DNA of 64,000 nucleotides, taken from an uncultured Candidatus Peribacteria bacterium. Lineage in GTDB: Bacteria > Patescibacteriota > Gracilibacteria > UBA1369. The position numbers and the translations under genes are program-made. Of the stretch, positions 46,070-49,239 are shown piece after piece (positions within the stretch are counted from its first letter, which is position 1; the number at the start of each line of letters is the position of its first letter). The notes beneath the pieces are model-generated. The model saw only the letters and a program-made list of their open reading frames with translations. It had not been told where the DNA came from and ran no database searches. The stretch lies in contig CAYFWB010000004.1 of NCBI GenBank assembly GCA_964346765.1, positions 55,512 through 119,511 on the forward strand. Reading direction: 5' to 3'.

Positions 46070-47134
46070 ATGTTTAAAAAGTTGTGTGGGCTTTGTTTGG
46101 CCGTGTTAATGCCGGGGATGGTTTTTGCCGAGGTGCAGCCGCCGTTTCCGGACGTACCAGTGGATCATCAATATGTAGAAGCTATCGGTTATCTTTATGA
46201 CAATGATATTGTGAGCGGTTATCCGGATGGGACTTTTAAACCGGACGCGCAAATCAACCGCGCGGAGTTTTTGAAAATTCTGGTGGGGAGCGGGAACGAG
46301 GGATTGGCGTATGCCGATGAGCTGGAGTCTCCTCAATCCGACTGTTTTACGGATGTGGGTTCGGAGTGGTTTGCGGCTTATGTGTGCGCGGGGAAGGCTT
46401 TCGGTTGGGTGGATGGGTATCCCGACGGCAGTTATAAACCGGAGCAGACGGTAAACAAGGTAGAGGCTATTAAAATGGTTTTAAACGCCAAGGAACTGGC
46501 CGATTTGCCGGATCCTTCCACTATCACGGTTAAACCTTATGACGATGTTCCTCTGGGCGAGTGGTACACGCCTTATGTGATGCGGGTCAAGGAGCTTGGA
46601 ATTCTGGAAGAGACGGGCGGAAACCTGAATCCAGGGGCGAACATGTCGCGGGCGGGGATTTCGGAAATGATGTACAGGAGTGAGTTTGTGGTGACGCCGG
46701 AGCCGGGCTTTGTTATTGATCTTGAGATGGCTATGGTAACGCGTGTGGTGGACGGTGATACTTTGGAGGTGGATCTGGACGGGGTGACGGAAAAGGTGCG
46801 TTTGCTGGGAATTGATACACCGGAATTTTCCAGCAGTGACTGTTATGCGCAGGAAGCGACGGATTACATAGAAGGGCTGGTTTTGGGGAAAGAAGTCGCA
46901 CTAAAGGCAGACGCTTTAAATGTCGACAGGGACAGATATGACCGTTTGCTCCGTTATGTGGAGCTTGACGGTCTGGATATCAACAAGAAGATGATTCGCG
47001 ACGGGTACGCTTTATATTACGATACCTATGATGTATTAAGGGGCGCGGAATATGCCGAAGCCCAGCTGGCCGCGCAGACCGAAGTCTTGGGTTTGTGGGG
47101 GGATTGCCAGGGGGCGGAGGAGCCGGGCTTATAA
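46070..47134 (+). CDS. secreted SLH-domain protein fused to a thermonuclease (SNase-like) domain
   Basis: It has a signal peptide and SLH repeats (FPDVP...GYPDGTFKPD..INRAE). The C-terminal part has VVDGDTLEV...VRLLGIDTPE, YDRLLRYVELDG and GLWG, typical of staphylococcal-nuclease homologues. Confidence 0.8.
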   Translation: MFKKLCGLCLAVLMPGMVFAEVQPPFPDVPVDHQYVEAIGYLYDNDIVSGYPDGTFKPDAQINRAEFLKILVGSGNEGLAYADELESPQSDCFTDVGSEWFAAYVCAGKAFGWVDGYPDGSYKPEQTVNKVEAIKMVLNAKELADLPDPSTITVKPYDDVPLGEWYTPYVMRVKELGILEETGGNLNPGANMSRAGISEMMYRSEFVVTPEPGFVIDLEMAMVTRVVDGDTLEVDLDGVTEKVRLLGIDTPEFSSSDCYAQEATDYIEGLVLGKEVALKADALNVDRDRYDRLLRYVELDGLDINKKMIRDGYALYYDTYDVLRGAEYAEAQLAAQTEVLGLWGDCQGAEEPGL

Positions 47135-47190
47135 ACCAGTTGAATATAGGTTGGGCGCGATATTCCGAGTTTTTTCGCCGGATGCGCGGC

Positions 47191-47496
47191 TTTTTTGCGT
47201 TTGTGGTCAACCAGAATCGGCGCGACATGAACTACGGAATGGCCGGCTTCATTCAGATATGAAGTAAGTCTTTGACCAAAACCCTGGCAATCTTCCAGAC
47301 CGATACGCGGTGAAAGGTTTGCCACTTTTGCCACTAATCTGACTTTTCCGGCCAACTCCTCAAAATTTTGAGGATAATTACCAACAGTGAGCTCAAACAG
47401 TTTTTCTCCGAATGGAGAAAGGCCAACTGCCGTATGTGTGTCCTTGTGGACATCGACGCCTACAAAGAGCGTCTTTGCTTTTTCACAGGTTTGCAT
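47191..47496 (-). pseudogene. IS110-family transposase, N-terminal DEDD domain only
   Basis: From the ATG at 47496 the frame reads MQTCEKAKTLFVGVDVHKDTHTAV...IGLEDCQGFGQRLTSYLNEAGHSVVHVAPILV, matching the first Asp and Glu contexts of IS110 RuvC-like domains. Recognisable similarity ends near 47195, and the rest of track ORF 47026..47556 merely reads through the nuclease gene 3' end. Confidence 0.6.
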
Positions 47497-47817
47497 GTGA
47501 AATGGAGTTAAAGAATATGCTTTGCGCGACGGCTGAATTCCCGGTATACGAGTCATATCCCTTGCGTGCGACTATCCGCTATATGTTCATATCCGAAACA
47601 CGGAGGCGGTATGCTACAATCCCTCATGAGTCGTTTTCATCAATTGAAGAGCGACAGGAACAAAAAACGAAATATCATACCGCCTCCACTTGAGATGAAT
47701 GACAGGGCAAGGGTGTGAAATGTCATACTACCTCCATAGACTTTACACTAAAAGTCCGAGACGATTCTCTCATACTGGGGACAAAAAGGGTGAATGCCCG
47801 AAGCCCAAAACACCTTA
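47497..47817 (-). ncRNA. candidate structured RNA in the IS110 5' non-coding end (bridge-RNA-like position)
   Basis: Nested stems are visible: GGAGGCGGTATG (47602-47613) with CATACCGCCTCC (47676-47687), enclosing TCGTTTT (47631-47637) with AAAACGA (47664-47670). A further hairpin pairs GACTTT with AAAGTC (47739-47756). CATACTACCTCC (47724-47735) is a near-copy of the 3' arm. Confidence 0.3.
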
Positions 47818-49239
47818 TTATATTTTTACTCCCAACTTTTCTATTTCATTTTTTATCCATTTTTCCGCTTCTTGTTCGTCTTTTTCTATTGCCATTTCTA
47901 CGCCTTGCTTGGCGATTTCAAGGAGGGATTTTGATAATTTCCTGTCGGCAAATGATTCTTCAATCAGTTCTTTGATTTCCTTTTGGTTATCTTCATTTAA
48001 AATAGGAATTATGGTTGTTTTTACTTGATCCGGTCTCCAATGCTTGATAATTGATCCGCCGGCGTACTGCTCGATTTGTTTTTGAACAACTACGGAATTT
48101 AAAACAAGCGTTAAGTATTCGGGCAATACTCGTTGGTCAATATCTTTTAATCTTAAAATACCGCCGGAAATAATCATTTTTTGCGGTTCTTCATTGAGAA
48201 AATAGGCAATACCGGGGGTTGCGTCCTTGGAAAGTAAAACCTCTCCTTTTTTAGGTTGATGTTTTTTAAAAGTCTCGTACAATTCGTCTGCTAAAAACTG
48301 CTGATTATTGGTACCTATTTCAAATTTTGAAAGATTGCTCACGCGGACAAACGGAATTCCGTTTTCTTGATATGCTTCGCTTCCCGGCTCAATACTTTTT
48401 TTAATTTTCACCAAATTTCCCAATTCATCAAATCCGTCTTTGTATTTTTTCACCGCCTCAATGATTTCTTCGTATTTCGGTTGAAAATACTCCGCATCAA
48501 AACGCTCGGCTTCTTGGGTGTCGGAAAAGTTTTTAATAAAACTCAGTTCGTGTTTCGGTCTCCAGCTGGGGAGTTCGAGTTCGGAAAGGAGTAGTTGTTC
48601 GGCTTGGGAGTAGTGTGTTTTGGAAGACTCAATTTGTTGAAAAGCATTTTTAACTATCTCAGCAATCATTTCTTGAAAAGAGCTTTTAACAATTGGAATT
48701 GGAGCTTGTCGCACTTTTTGCAATGATAACCCTTGTTGCACCATCCCTGAACTATTTCTAGTAAGCCAATCCTGCCCAAGATTACAATTCAGATAAACCA
48801 GCAAAAATTCTGGCAAGATTCTGGATTTTTTCTCTAAATCAATTCTAGCAACATCTTGATCAATATTTGCTGGTAAAATATTCTCATTAACTAAGGCGCA
48901 AAATCCAACAGTTCCTCTAGTCGAAAGAATTAAGTCATCTTTTTGCAGTGATGATCTTTTATTTTTATCATCTACCCACTTTGCAATCCTATCTGCTTCA
49001 ATATCATCTGCAAACCAATTTTTAGCATTTTTAGCGGTTAAATGCCTTATTGGAGAATCTTCATCAACTTCATGATATCCATGCTGCCCATCAGTCACAA
49101 AAGCTATATCACCAATTTTAATGTTCTCATATTTGGCAATCAATGCGTCTTCTCTTAAATATTGAGGCTTGTAATACTCAGCATCCCATCTGAATGCAAA
49201 GCTTTCTAATTCACTAAAATTTATGATTGAGTATTGCAT
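47818..49239 (-). CDS. hsdS: type I restriction-modification specificity subunit
   Basis: 473 aa with a two-TRD architecture and repeated conserved spacer helices (...QEMIAEIVKNAF... and ...QKEIKELIEESF...). It is in an operon with an N6-adenine methylase. Confidence 0.8.
   Translation of the reverse strand: MQYSIINFSELESFAFRWDAEYYKPQYLREDALIAKYENIKIGDIAFVTDGQHGYHEVDEDSPIRHLTAKNAKNWFADDIEADRIAKWVDDKNKRSSLQKDDLILSTRGTVGFCALVNENILPANIDQDVARIDLEKKSRILPEFLLVYLNCNLGQDWLTRNSSGMVQQGLSLQKVRQAPIPIVKSSFQEMIAEIVKNAFQQIESSKTHYSQAEQLLLSELELPSWRPKHELSFIKNFSDTQEAERFDAEYFQPKYEEIIEAVKKYKDGFDELGNLVKIKKSIEPGSEAYQENGIPFVRVSNLSKFEIGTNNQQFLADELYETFKKHQPKKGEVLLSKDATPGIAYFLNEEPQKMIISGGILRLKDIDQRVLPEYLTLVLNSVVVQKQIEQYAGGSIIKHWRPDQVKTTIIPILNEDNQKEIKELIEESFADRKLSKSLLEIAKQGVEMAIEKDEQEAEKWIKNEIEKLGVKI

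What the first reader, a model, noticed from the sequence alone, without database searches (positions are those of the whole stretch)
47191..47817. Decayed IS110-family element that keeps its 5' non-coding end with bridge-RNA-like nested stems
Only about 100 aa of an IS110-type DEDD domain remain (FVGVDVHKDTHTAV ... GLEDCQG ... VVHVAP). The 321-nt region upstream of its ATG is intact and strongly self-complementary. A 12-bp perfect stem (47602-47613 with 47676-47687) encloses a 7-bp stem, and there is an additional hairpin. A 10/12 near-copy of the stem arm at 47724-47735 could pair alternatively. In IS110/IS621-type elements this position encodes the guide (bridge) RNA that specifies target and donor. 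A stranded guide RNA next to an R-M locus would be a useful fossil for inferring the element's former target.
Basis: partly seen in the sequence, partly recalled or inferred. Interest (0 to 1): 0.6.

Follow-up and report, generated by a model that had tools for sequence, protein, structure and literature searches.

The report
IS110 fossil with dual-guide bridge RNA
This is the dead front end of a jumping gene that still carries an almost undamaged guide ("bridge") RNA gene, and in this sub-family the RNA has two alternative address segments that match the two kinds of site where its relatives are found inserted.

Summary

**What is there**
- Window 47173-47776 (minus strand) is the 5' remnant of an IS110-group insertion sequence.
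- It keeps the left end, about 235 nt of bridge RNA gene, and the first 108 aa of the DEDD recombinase.
- The rest of the gene, the right end and the right half of the target are gone.

**Evidence that it is a bridge RNA**
- Forty distinct intact relatives (63-86% protein identity to the closest intact homologue) keep the same upstream RNA, with strong compensatory covariation.
- A covariance model built without the window hits 47522-47601 at E 1e-21.
- One internal loop spells the element's own right end in sense, and the core plus left end in antisense. This makes it the donor loop.
- The other loop resembles the insertion flank, so it is the target loop.

**What is new**
- The window's sub-family has a 48-nt tandem duplication of the 5' half of the target loop.
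- This gives two left-target guides that compete for one shared 3' half.
- Eight insertions of such elements fall into two site classes, each matching one guide. Identical copies within one genome use both classes.
- The window's copy used guide 2.

The fossil itself looks inert. Dual addressing is inferred, not shown. Earlier notes from this scan reported duplicated target loops in IS1111-type elements on other DNA.

The parts
47777..47815 (-). Left half of the target: 5' arm and part of the loop of a conserved hairpin repeat, directly after the hsdS stop codon. It is flank, not element.
   Evidence: The same about 40 nt occur without any IS in other genomes of the order, where the complete hairpin is seen. 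Positions 47778-47787 match guide 2 (47657-47666) at 9/10.
47764..47776 (-). Left end (LE) terminus of the element, including a -10-like hexamer GAGAAT (47769-47764).
   Evidence: The first 12 nt are invariant in 41 aligned copies. In a right-end/left-end junction of a relative, the -10 pairs with a TTGACA in the right end at 17-nt spacing. The window has no -35 partner.
47738..47759 (-). 5' stem-loop of the bridge RNA.
   Evidence: A 7-bp hairpin appears in both constrained folds. A 5' hairpin is also present in relatives, but it is not positionally alignable with the main clade.
47724..47735 (-). Arm 1: first copy of the 5' strand of the target-loop outer stem.
   Evidence: It pairs 10/12 plus one G-U with 47602-47613. 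It is homologous to the single 5' arm of single-loop relatives, where 12 of 14 stem pairs covary.
47705..47723 (-). Guide loop 1 (LTG1), the ancestral left-target guide. Its last 9 nt are 47713-47705.
   Evidence: It aligns with the LTG of single-loop relatives. It matches type A insertion sites of sister elements at 6-8/9, but the window's own flank at only 5/9.
47693..47704 (-). Conserved TGTC plus first copy of the apical-hairpin 5' arm.
   Evidence: This arm can pair with 47640-47636.
47676..47687 (-). Arm 2: duplicated 5' strand of the target-loop outer stem.
   Evidence: It forms a perfect 12-bp helix with 47602-47613. It lies 48 nt downstream of arm 1 and is 10/12 identical to it.
47657..47675 (-). 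Guide loop 2 (LTG2), the derived left-target guide. Its last 9 nt are 47665-47657.
   Evidence: It matches the window's own left flank at 8/9, and the empty sites in neighbouring genomes match it closely by eye. The guide segment is only 2-5/11 identical to guide 1, while the flanking structural parts are conserved.
47636..47656 (-). TGTC plus apical hairpin of the target loop, including the shared 3' hairpin arm.
   Evidence: Helix 4: all 5 pairs show double changes across the family.
47614..47635 (-). 3' side of the target loop with the right-target guide (RTG). GAGGG lies at 47625-47621.
   Evidence: Its reverse complement reads core CC plus CTC, which is the start of the right flank in relatives of both site types. 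In relative L146 the RTG matches the right flank over 11 nt.
47602..47613 (-). Single shared 3' strand of the target-loop outer stem.
47522..47601 (-). Donor-binding loop module. The left-donor guide is at 47582-47574 and the right-donor guide at 47548-47540.
   Evidence: A covariance model built from 40 relatives without the window gives 71.8 bits, E 1.3e-21, full length, and it is the only hit in the window and in the genome. The left-donor guide equals the last 9 nt of the right end of intact relatives. The right-donor guide is the reverse complement of the core plus left-end start, with one window-specific T>C.
47173..47496 (-). Truncated recombinase gene: the first 108 codons of the DEDD (RuvC-like) domain.
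   Evidence: Pfam profile positions 1-93 of 155 only. It is 84% identical to the N-terminus of the 363-aa P0001, which carries PF01548 plus PF02371. The alignment with L011 stops near 47173. Nothing downstream resembles the right end or the right flank.

Best explanation
An IS110-group element of a clade found in groundwater Candidate Phyla Radiation (CPR) bacteria inserted into the loop of a hairpin repeat directly downstream of hsdS. It inserted by RNA-guided recombination, with the second of its two left-target guides reading the site. A later deletion removed about 1 kb: two thirds of the recombinase gene, the right end and the right half of the hairpin. What remains is the left end with a nearly unmutated bridge RNA gene and 108 codons of the recombinase.

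In intact relatives the RNA works like the IS621 bridge RNA.
- The donor loop pairs with the right-end/left-end junction of the excised circle.
- The target loop pairs with the left target (bottom strand) and the right target (top strand) around a C-C/T core.
- A promoter is assembled across the circle junction.

Specific to this sub-family, the 5' half of the target loop (stem arm, guide, TGTC, hairpin arm) is duplicated in tandem. The RNA can therefore fold into two mutually exclusive target loops that share one right-target guide but present different left-target guides. This lets one element use two variants of the hairpin target.

Shown: homology, conserved structure, guide-to-DNA matches, and the two site classes. 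Inferred: transcription, conformer switching, use of both guides by the recombinase, and that the fossil is inert.
For: - **Fragment identity:**
- **Conserved structure:** 41 distinct sequences, 95.8% of cells paired, 25 of 42 pairs with double changes, 0 of 500 shuffles reaching the observed values, and slid controls at 34-49%.
- **Independent covariance model:** E 1.3e-21 on the window.
- **Donor guides:**
  - The 5' side of loop 2 is identical to the last 9 nt of the right end.
  - The 3' side is the reverse complement of the core plus left-end start.
  - In L012/L146 both the guide and the right end change together, and the right-donor guide tracks a CT core.
- **Target guides:**
  - Family-wide, the left-target guide matches the left flank at 7.0 of 9.
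  - L146's right-target guide matches its right flank over 11 nt.
  - L100 sits inside another copy's guide-coding DNA.
- **Core duplication:** empty sites have four C, while filled sites have three plus three, which indicates a 2-nt core duplication.
- **Junction promoter:** TTGACA-17-GAGAAT.
- **Dual guide:**
  - The duplication is present in the window, L011, L072, L073, L074, L154 and L155.
  - Arms are 10-11/12 identical, TGTC is 4/4 in four of five copies (a 1-nt deletion shifts the register in L073), and the guides are only 2-5/11 identical.
  - The two conformers lie within 0.9-6.4 kcal/mol of each other, and either one can be the minimum-energy fold.
  - Four insertions match guide 1 (6-8/9, against 2-4/9 for guide 2). 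Four match guide 2 (8-9/9, against 3-5/9 for guide 1).
  - The two G042 copies are identical over the 5' region that the contigs cover but sit in different site classes.
  - Type B sites are used by 4 of 8 dual elements against 1 of 36 single-loop relatives, Fisher p = 0.002.
Against: - There are no expression data.
- No sigma-70-like promoter is predicted upstream of the fossil on its strand.
- The covariation between guide and flank is weak within the main single-loop clade, because all its targets are alike. The left-target guide permutation test gives p = 0.03 and the right-target guide gives p = 0.7.
- Only eight dual-type insertion events are available. All come from MAG or metagenome contigs, several of which end inside the element.
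- For two of the eight events (L155, L158), guide 2 was taken from the sister copy.
- Guide 1 matches are no better than 6-8 of 9.
- The exact core and register are ambiguous in the main clade, where the left junction mostly reads CC and the right junction CT.
- The left-donor guide does not obviously include the core, unlike in IS621.
Confidence: 0.9

Rival explanations
1. The duplication is a neutral relic. Only one of the two left-target guides works (most likely copy 2, with its perfect stem), and the other is a decaying leftover. On this view, the insertions in the 'other' site class are tolerated off-targets.
For: Copy 2 forms the better helix in the window and in L073. Guide 1 matches its sites at only 6-8/9. 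Bridge recombinases are reported to tolerate mismatches and off-target insertion (titles and abstracts). The number of events is small.
Against: Both arms, both TGTC motifs and both hairpin arms stay conserved across six diverged elements while the guides differ. Type A sites match guide 2 at only 2-4/9 and type B sites match guide 1 at only 3-5/9, which is too poor for tolerated off-targets. Single-loop kin that carry only a guide-1-type guide essentially never sit in type B sites.
Confidence: 0.3
2. The upstream region is an ordinary 5' leader (translational or transcriptional control of the transposase) or encodes the antisense 93-aa ORF (47412-47693, plus strand). On this view it is not a guide RNA.
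For: The fold of the single sequence is not exceptional (z = -1.64). An antisense ORF of similar sequence is also open in L072. Rfam has no matching family.
Against: The loops carry the element's own ends and its flank in the strand pattern defined for bridge RNAs. Compensatory pair changes are the dominant pattern of variation. By eye on the alignment, the roughly 48-nt insertion that most of the antisense ORF spans is missing in most relatives.
Confidence: 0.03
3. The stranded bridge RNA is still used. It would be transcribed by read-through from the R-M operon and would act in trans with another recombinase, or as a regulatory RNA.
For: Only 2 departures from columns that are at least 90% conserved, which is within the range of intact copies (0-18, most 0-5). 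It lies on the same strand directly after hsdS, with no terminator predicted in between, because the insertion split the hairpin.
Against: The only other IS110-family gene in the 98.9%-complete genome is 21% identical. No right end, no second left end and no further target repeat exist in the assembly. The right-donor guide carries a window-specific mismatch to its own left end. Near-intactness is equally explained by a recent deletion.
Confidence: 0.07

Closest known systems
IS621 / IS110-group bridge RNA with its recombinase (Durrant et al. 2024, PMC11208160; Hiraizumi et al. 2024, PMC11208158)
   Same: The RNA is encoded in the left end, upstream of a DEDD plus Tnp_20 recombinase. The order is 5' stem-loop, then target-binding internal loop, then donor-binding internal loop. 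The left guides are in the sense of the top strand and the right guides are antisense, exactly as defined. A 2-nt core is duplicated at both junctions. A promoter is split between the right end and the left end. The target is a repeated extragenic hairpin.
   Different: There is no detectable sequence similarity to any Rfam family. The core is C-C/T rather than CT. The left-donor guide does not visibly cover the core. This sub-family carries a tandem duplicate of the 5' half of the target loop, giving two left-target guides for one right-target guide. That layout was not found in the searchable literature.
ISPpu10 (bioRxiv 10.64898/2026.03.19.712850), an IS110 element whose target recognition needs a DNA hairpin
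   Same: The target is a conserved intergenic hairpin-containing repeat (abstract only). Here too the insertions lie in the loop of a G+C-rich hairpin.
   Different: Whether the hairpin structure itself is read here is untested. ISPpu10 is reported to lack the 5' stem-loop, whereas this clade has one.
IS1111-group seekRNA elements (Siddiquee et al. 2024), and two earlier notes of this scan on IS1111-type elements with duplicated target loops (e1-2504084, e1-5228663)
   Same: The idea that a guide-RNA module can be duplicated inside one element.
   Different: In those elements the RNA is 3'-encoded and whole hairpin modules are duplicated. Here the RNA is 5'-encoded, only the 5' half-loop is duplicated, and the two copies compete for one 3' half. 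Here the two site classes are actually observed.

Membership tests
IS110 family (IS110 group) insertion sequence | N-terminal DEDD / RuvC-like recombinase domain (PF01548) | tested here: met
   E 2.1e-12, above the curated cut-off, but only profile positions 1-93 of 155 are present.
IS110 family (IS110 group) insertion sequence | C-terminal Transposase_20 domain (PF02371) with the catalytic serine | tested here: not met
   The domain is absent from the window copy because of truncation near 47173. It is present in nearly all listed full-length relatives. The window copy is therefore a remnant of a member, not a functional member.
IS110 family (IS110 group) insertion sequence | Long non-coding left end, short right end, no terminal inverted repeats, site-specific insertion with a duplicated 2-nt core | tested here: met
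   In relatives the left end is about 230-285 nt and the right end only a few tens of nt after the stop codon. Junctions read CC on both sides in the window's sub-family. Empty sites have 4 C against 3+3 in filled sites.
Bridge RNA (bispecific guide RNA of IS110 recombinases) | Conserved secondary structure with two internal loops, supported by covariation | tested here: met
   A covariance model of the second loop hits the window at E 1.3e-21.
Bridge RNA (bispecific guide RNA of IS110 recombinases) | Donor loop: the 5' side matches the right-end terminus in sense, and the 3' side is complementary to the core plus left-end start | tested here: met
   There is a 9-nt identity to the right end, and an 8-9-nt reverse-complement match to the core plus left end. 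L012/L146 covary in the guide, the right end and the core. The window copy has one mismatch in the right-donor guide.
Bridge RNA (bispecific guide RNA of IS110 recombinases) | Target loop: the 5' side matches the left flank in sense, and the 3' side is complementary to the core plus right flank, covarying with the site | tested here: met
   In the window, guide 2 matches the flank at 8/9 (9/10 by the repeat finder). Sister elements track their sites. L146's right-target guide matches over 11 nt. Within the uniform main clade the covariation is weak (p = 0.03 for the left guide, 0.7 for the right guide).
Bridge RNA (bispecific guide RNA of IS110 recombinases) | RNA is transcribed and required for recombination | not testable with these tools
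   Only a junction-spanning promoter-like site in a relative was found. No promoter-like site lies upstream of the fossil.
Rfam-curated RNA family | Match to any Rfam 15 covariance model | tested here: not met
   There were no hits over the region at E up to 10. Intact relatives had no hit at gathering score.

The most novel reading that the evidence does not exclude
A natural two-address bridge RNA. A tandem duplicate of the 5' half of the target-binding loop lets one RNA switch between two near-isoenergetic folds. Each fold presents a different left-target guide next to the same right-target guide, so a single IS110 element homes into two sequence variants of its hairpin target. The window preserves a fossil copy that used the second address.
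Probability: 0.55. Interest if true: 0.75.

Novelty: new variant of a known kind. Interest (0 to 1): 0.6.

Why it matters
Bridge RNAs are being developed as programmable recombination tools, and their natural diversity is being mined. If one RNA can present two alternative left-target guides through mutually exclusive pairing with a shared 3' half, that would be a compact natural way to give one recombinase two addresses. It would also show that guide modules evolve by partial duplication followed by retargeting, with the ancestral guide retained.

The idea can be tested directly with the existing plasmid assays. For genome biology, the result documents an RNA-guided IS clade in small CPR genomes that homes into hairpin repeats just after stop codons. 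It also shows that 5' fossils of these elements can be read: the stranded guide identifies the former target even though half of that target has been deleted.

The fossil itself is ordinary and probably inert.

Tried and rejected
- **Rfam search.** Nothing was found in the region at E up to 10 or in intact relatives at gathering score.
- **Fold of the single sequence.** Not significant (z = -1.64), so the case rests on comparative data.
- **Intact copies or further target repeats in the window's own genome.** None were found. The only other IS110 gene (L002) is 21% identical and unrelated at the RNA level.
- **Remnant of the right target half or right end beyond the truncation point.** Local alignments scored no better than shuffles.
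- **Same-genus genome G001, to reconstruct the ancestral locus.** There was no DNA match.
- **Viral contigs.** No relatives.
- **Class-level sample of 400 genomes.** No further copies of the dual-type RNA.
- **The look-up of encoding contigs.** The metagenome scan returned only the best 80 of 391 relatives.
- **Permutation tests of guide versus flank in the main clade.** These gave only weak signal because the targets are nearly uniform.
- **Exact core register in the main clade.** I could not settle it. No empty sites of that type were among the fetched loci.
- **Motif-based coordinate script.** The coordinates were obtained from alignment columns instead.
- **Antisense ORF reading.** Rejected on the covariation pattern and on its absence from most relatives.

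Full report
**1. Observation**

The minus-strand ORF 47026-47556 carries the N-terminal 93 of 155 positions of Pfam DEDD_Tnp_IS110 (E 2.1e-12). The likely start is the ATG at 47496.

Full-length homologues of 355-385 aa, almost all with PF01548 plus PF02371, are abundant: 523 hits, the best being P0001 at 84% identity over the 108-aa query. The DNA alignment with the intact Peregrinibacteria copy L011 runs base for base from the non-coding region into the gene and stops near 47173.

The neighbours are a Type I specificity gene, whose stop is at 47818 on the same strand, and an SLH-SNase gene ending at 47134 on the other strand.

On its own the 320-nt fold is unremarkable (z = -1.64). Rfam has nothing there.

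**2. Relatives and element borders**

The window's genome is 1.4 Mb in 19 contigs and 98.9% complete. It holds no second copy, only a 21%-identical IS110 elsewhere.

Genome and metagenome scans returned one intact copy in a Peregrinibacteria MAG (L011) and 80 metagenome loci with full-length genes. nhmmer finds the window's upstream region in front of the gene in roughly 70 of the fetched loci.

- The left end starts with an invariant 12-mer, at window 47776.
- The right end finishes a few tens of nt after the stop codon, with a conserved terminus.
- Two contigs show right-end/left-end junctions, L074 and L129.

In the window's sub-family both junctions read CC. Empty sites in other genomes have four C where filled sites have three plus three, which indicates a 2-nt core duplication.

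The 40 nt left of 47776 are therefore flank. They are the 5' arm and part of the loop of a hairpin repeat that occurs, uninterrupted, right after the stop codons of unrelated genes in other genomes of the order.

**3. Structure**

Forty-one distinct sequences running from the left end to the ATG were aligned (A3). RNAalifold predicts two internal-loop modules.

| Measure | Value |
|---|---|
| Cells paired | 95.8% |
| Cells paired with partners slid | 34-49% |
| Pairs with compensatory double changes | 25 of 42 |
| Shuffles reaching any of the five measures | 0 of 500 |

- The outer stem of loop 1 has 12 of 14 pairs with double changes.
- The short helices predicted inside the loops barely vary. 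They are explained by both guides covering the same core.
- A covariance model of loop 2, built from 40 relatives without the window, hits 47522-47601 full length at 71.8 bits, E 1.3e-21. It hits nothing else in the window or the genome.

**4. What the loops read**

The bridge-RNA definition is that left guides pair with the bottom strand and right guides with the top strand, each including the core.

*Loop 2 (donor loop).*
- The 5' side carries the last 9 nt of the right end in sense.
- The 3' side is the reverse complement of the core plus the first 6 nt of the left end, and further with one mismatch.
- This holds in nearly all the copies examined.
- In the divergent pair L012/L146 the guide and the right end carry the same two-base change, and the right-donor guide follows a CT core.

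*Loop 1 (target loop).*
- The 5' side resembles the left flank, with a mean of 7.0 of 9 across 36 distinct single-loop insertions. Because all these targets are alike, permuted pairs score 6.8, so the covariation is weak (p = 0.03).
- L146's 3' side matches its right flank over 11 nt.
- L084, L077 and L132 show extended right-side matches.
- L100 is a copy inserted into the guide-coding DNA of another copy, whose flank is identical to the guide over 18 nt.

*Promoter.* The right-end/left-end junction in L074 forms TTGACA-17-GAGAAT with a TG extension. This is the split-promoter arrangement reported for IS621.

**5. The duplication**

The window, L011, L072, L073, L074 (= L076/L157), L154 and L155 carry a 48-nt tandem duplicate of the 5' half of loop 1: stem arm, guide loop, TGTC and hairpin arm. 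L158, which is truncated inside copy 1, has the sub-family's sequence signature and sits in the same genome as L154. The closest single-loop kin (L075, L077, L078, L079) and the rest of the family have one copy.

Between the two copies:

| Segment | Identity |
|---|---|
| Arms | 10-11 of 12 |
| TGTC | 4 of 4 (a 1-nt deletion shifts the register in L073) |
| Guide | 2-5 of 11 |

There is only one 3' half, and either 5' half can pair with it. Constrained folds of the two conformers differ by 0.9-6.4 kcal/mol, and either one can be the minimum.

**6. Two site classes**

Eight insertion events of dual-type elements were scored.

| Site class | Events | Guide 1 match | Guide 2 match |
|---|---|---|---|
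| Type A | L011, L072, L155, L154 | 6-8 of 9 | 2-4 of 9 |
| Type B (loop variant with a T-rich insert) | window, L073, L074, L158 | 3-5 of 9 | 8-9 of 9 |

- For L155 and L158 guide 2 was taken from the sister copy, because those contigs end or the copy is truncated before it.
- In genome G042 two copies that are identical over the sequenced 5' part sit in a type A and a type B site. Genome G151 shows the same.
- Right flanks of both classes begin with the same core plus CTC that the single right-target guide reads.
- Type B sites are used by 4 of 8 dual elements against 1 of 36 single-loop relatives (Fisher p = 0.002).
- In the window itself, the repeat finder independently reports 47657-47666 (guide 2) and 47778-47787 (flank) as a 9/10 repeat.

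**7. State of the fossil**

The RNA gene departs from columns that are at least 90% conserved at only two positions, which is within the range of intact copies. One of the two departures is in the right-donor guide.

- No promoter-like site precedes the RNA gene on its strand.
- No cognate recombinase, right end or further target repeat exists in the assembly.
- Nothing beyond 47173 resembles the right end or the right flank.

The simplest reading is a fairly recent deletion that left an inert stub. Similar 5' stubs occur in G054 (L156) and G151 (L158).

**8. Comparison and novelty**

The element works like IS621-type bridge systems and passes the tests that could be run. The window copy itself lacks the catalytic C-terminal domain.

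Searches of the held literature found no description of a duplicated or alternative target-loop half. A 2026 preprint surveying 32,190 bridge RNAs discusses guide length, not this layout.

Two earlier notes of this scan report duplicated target hairpins in 3'-encoded IS1111-type RNAs on other DNA. I did not test them.

I rate the fossil as an ordinary new member. I rate the half-loop duplication, with its two observed site classes, as a new variant of a known kind. Its function is inferred and not shown.

Noticed in passing
L002 (G000 contig C1, about 283.2-284.7 kb); ORF at L002:1387-2454: The genome's only other IS110-family gene is intact (355 aa from the listed start). It is 21% identical to this clade and has its own roughly 290-nt upstream non-coding region, which was not analysed for a bridge RNA.
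   Followed up: partly
L008, L009, L010 (downstream of the empty hairpin); L072:2310-2840; L073 right flank: Downstream of the target hairpin lies a further 100-300 nt of non-coding sequence that is conserved between genomes of different families and has no Rfam match. In L072 it is followed by a Fic-domain gene, as in the window's island. Its nature is unknown; it could be a repeat, the end of another element, or an RNA.
   Followed up: partly
L100 (whole 1494-nt contig): One copy is inserted into the guide-coding DNA of another copy. The left flank is identical to the guide over 18 nt, and the right flank continues with the rest of the target loop. This shows that the guide gene is itself a target mimic.
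   Followed up: partly
L074:2290-2335; L129:80-115: These contigs contain right-end/left-end junctions. In L074 the right end plus core is followed by a 16-nt left-end stub and then the right half of the target. In L129 a full second copy follows. These may be tandem insertions or assembled circle junctions.
   Followed up: no
L156 (G054:C40) and L158 (G151:C119): Two further 5' stubs of the same sub-family, truncated inside or just after the first guide loop. Loss of the 3' part while keeping the left end therefore seems recurrent.
   Followed up: partly
L095:860-1200: This copy lacks the left-end terminus and 5' stem-loop. It abuts what reads like the 3' end of a tRNA gene, and it has an extra roughly 40-nt hairpin inserted between the target and donor loops.
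   Followed up: no
main-clade loci, e.g. L118, L127, L141, L094 (left and right junctions): In the main clade the left junction mostly reads CC and the right junction CT, with a few copies reading CT or TC on the left. This would fit unequal donor and target cores, but no empty site was available to settle it.
   Followed up: partly
window 47412-47693 (+): A 93-aa antisense ORF lies over the bridge RNA gene and is also open in L072. It is most likely a by-product of the conserved DNA, since most of it spans the sub-family-specific duplication.
   Followed up: partly
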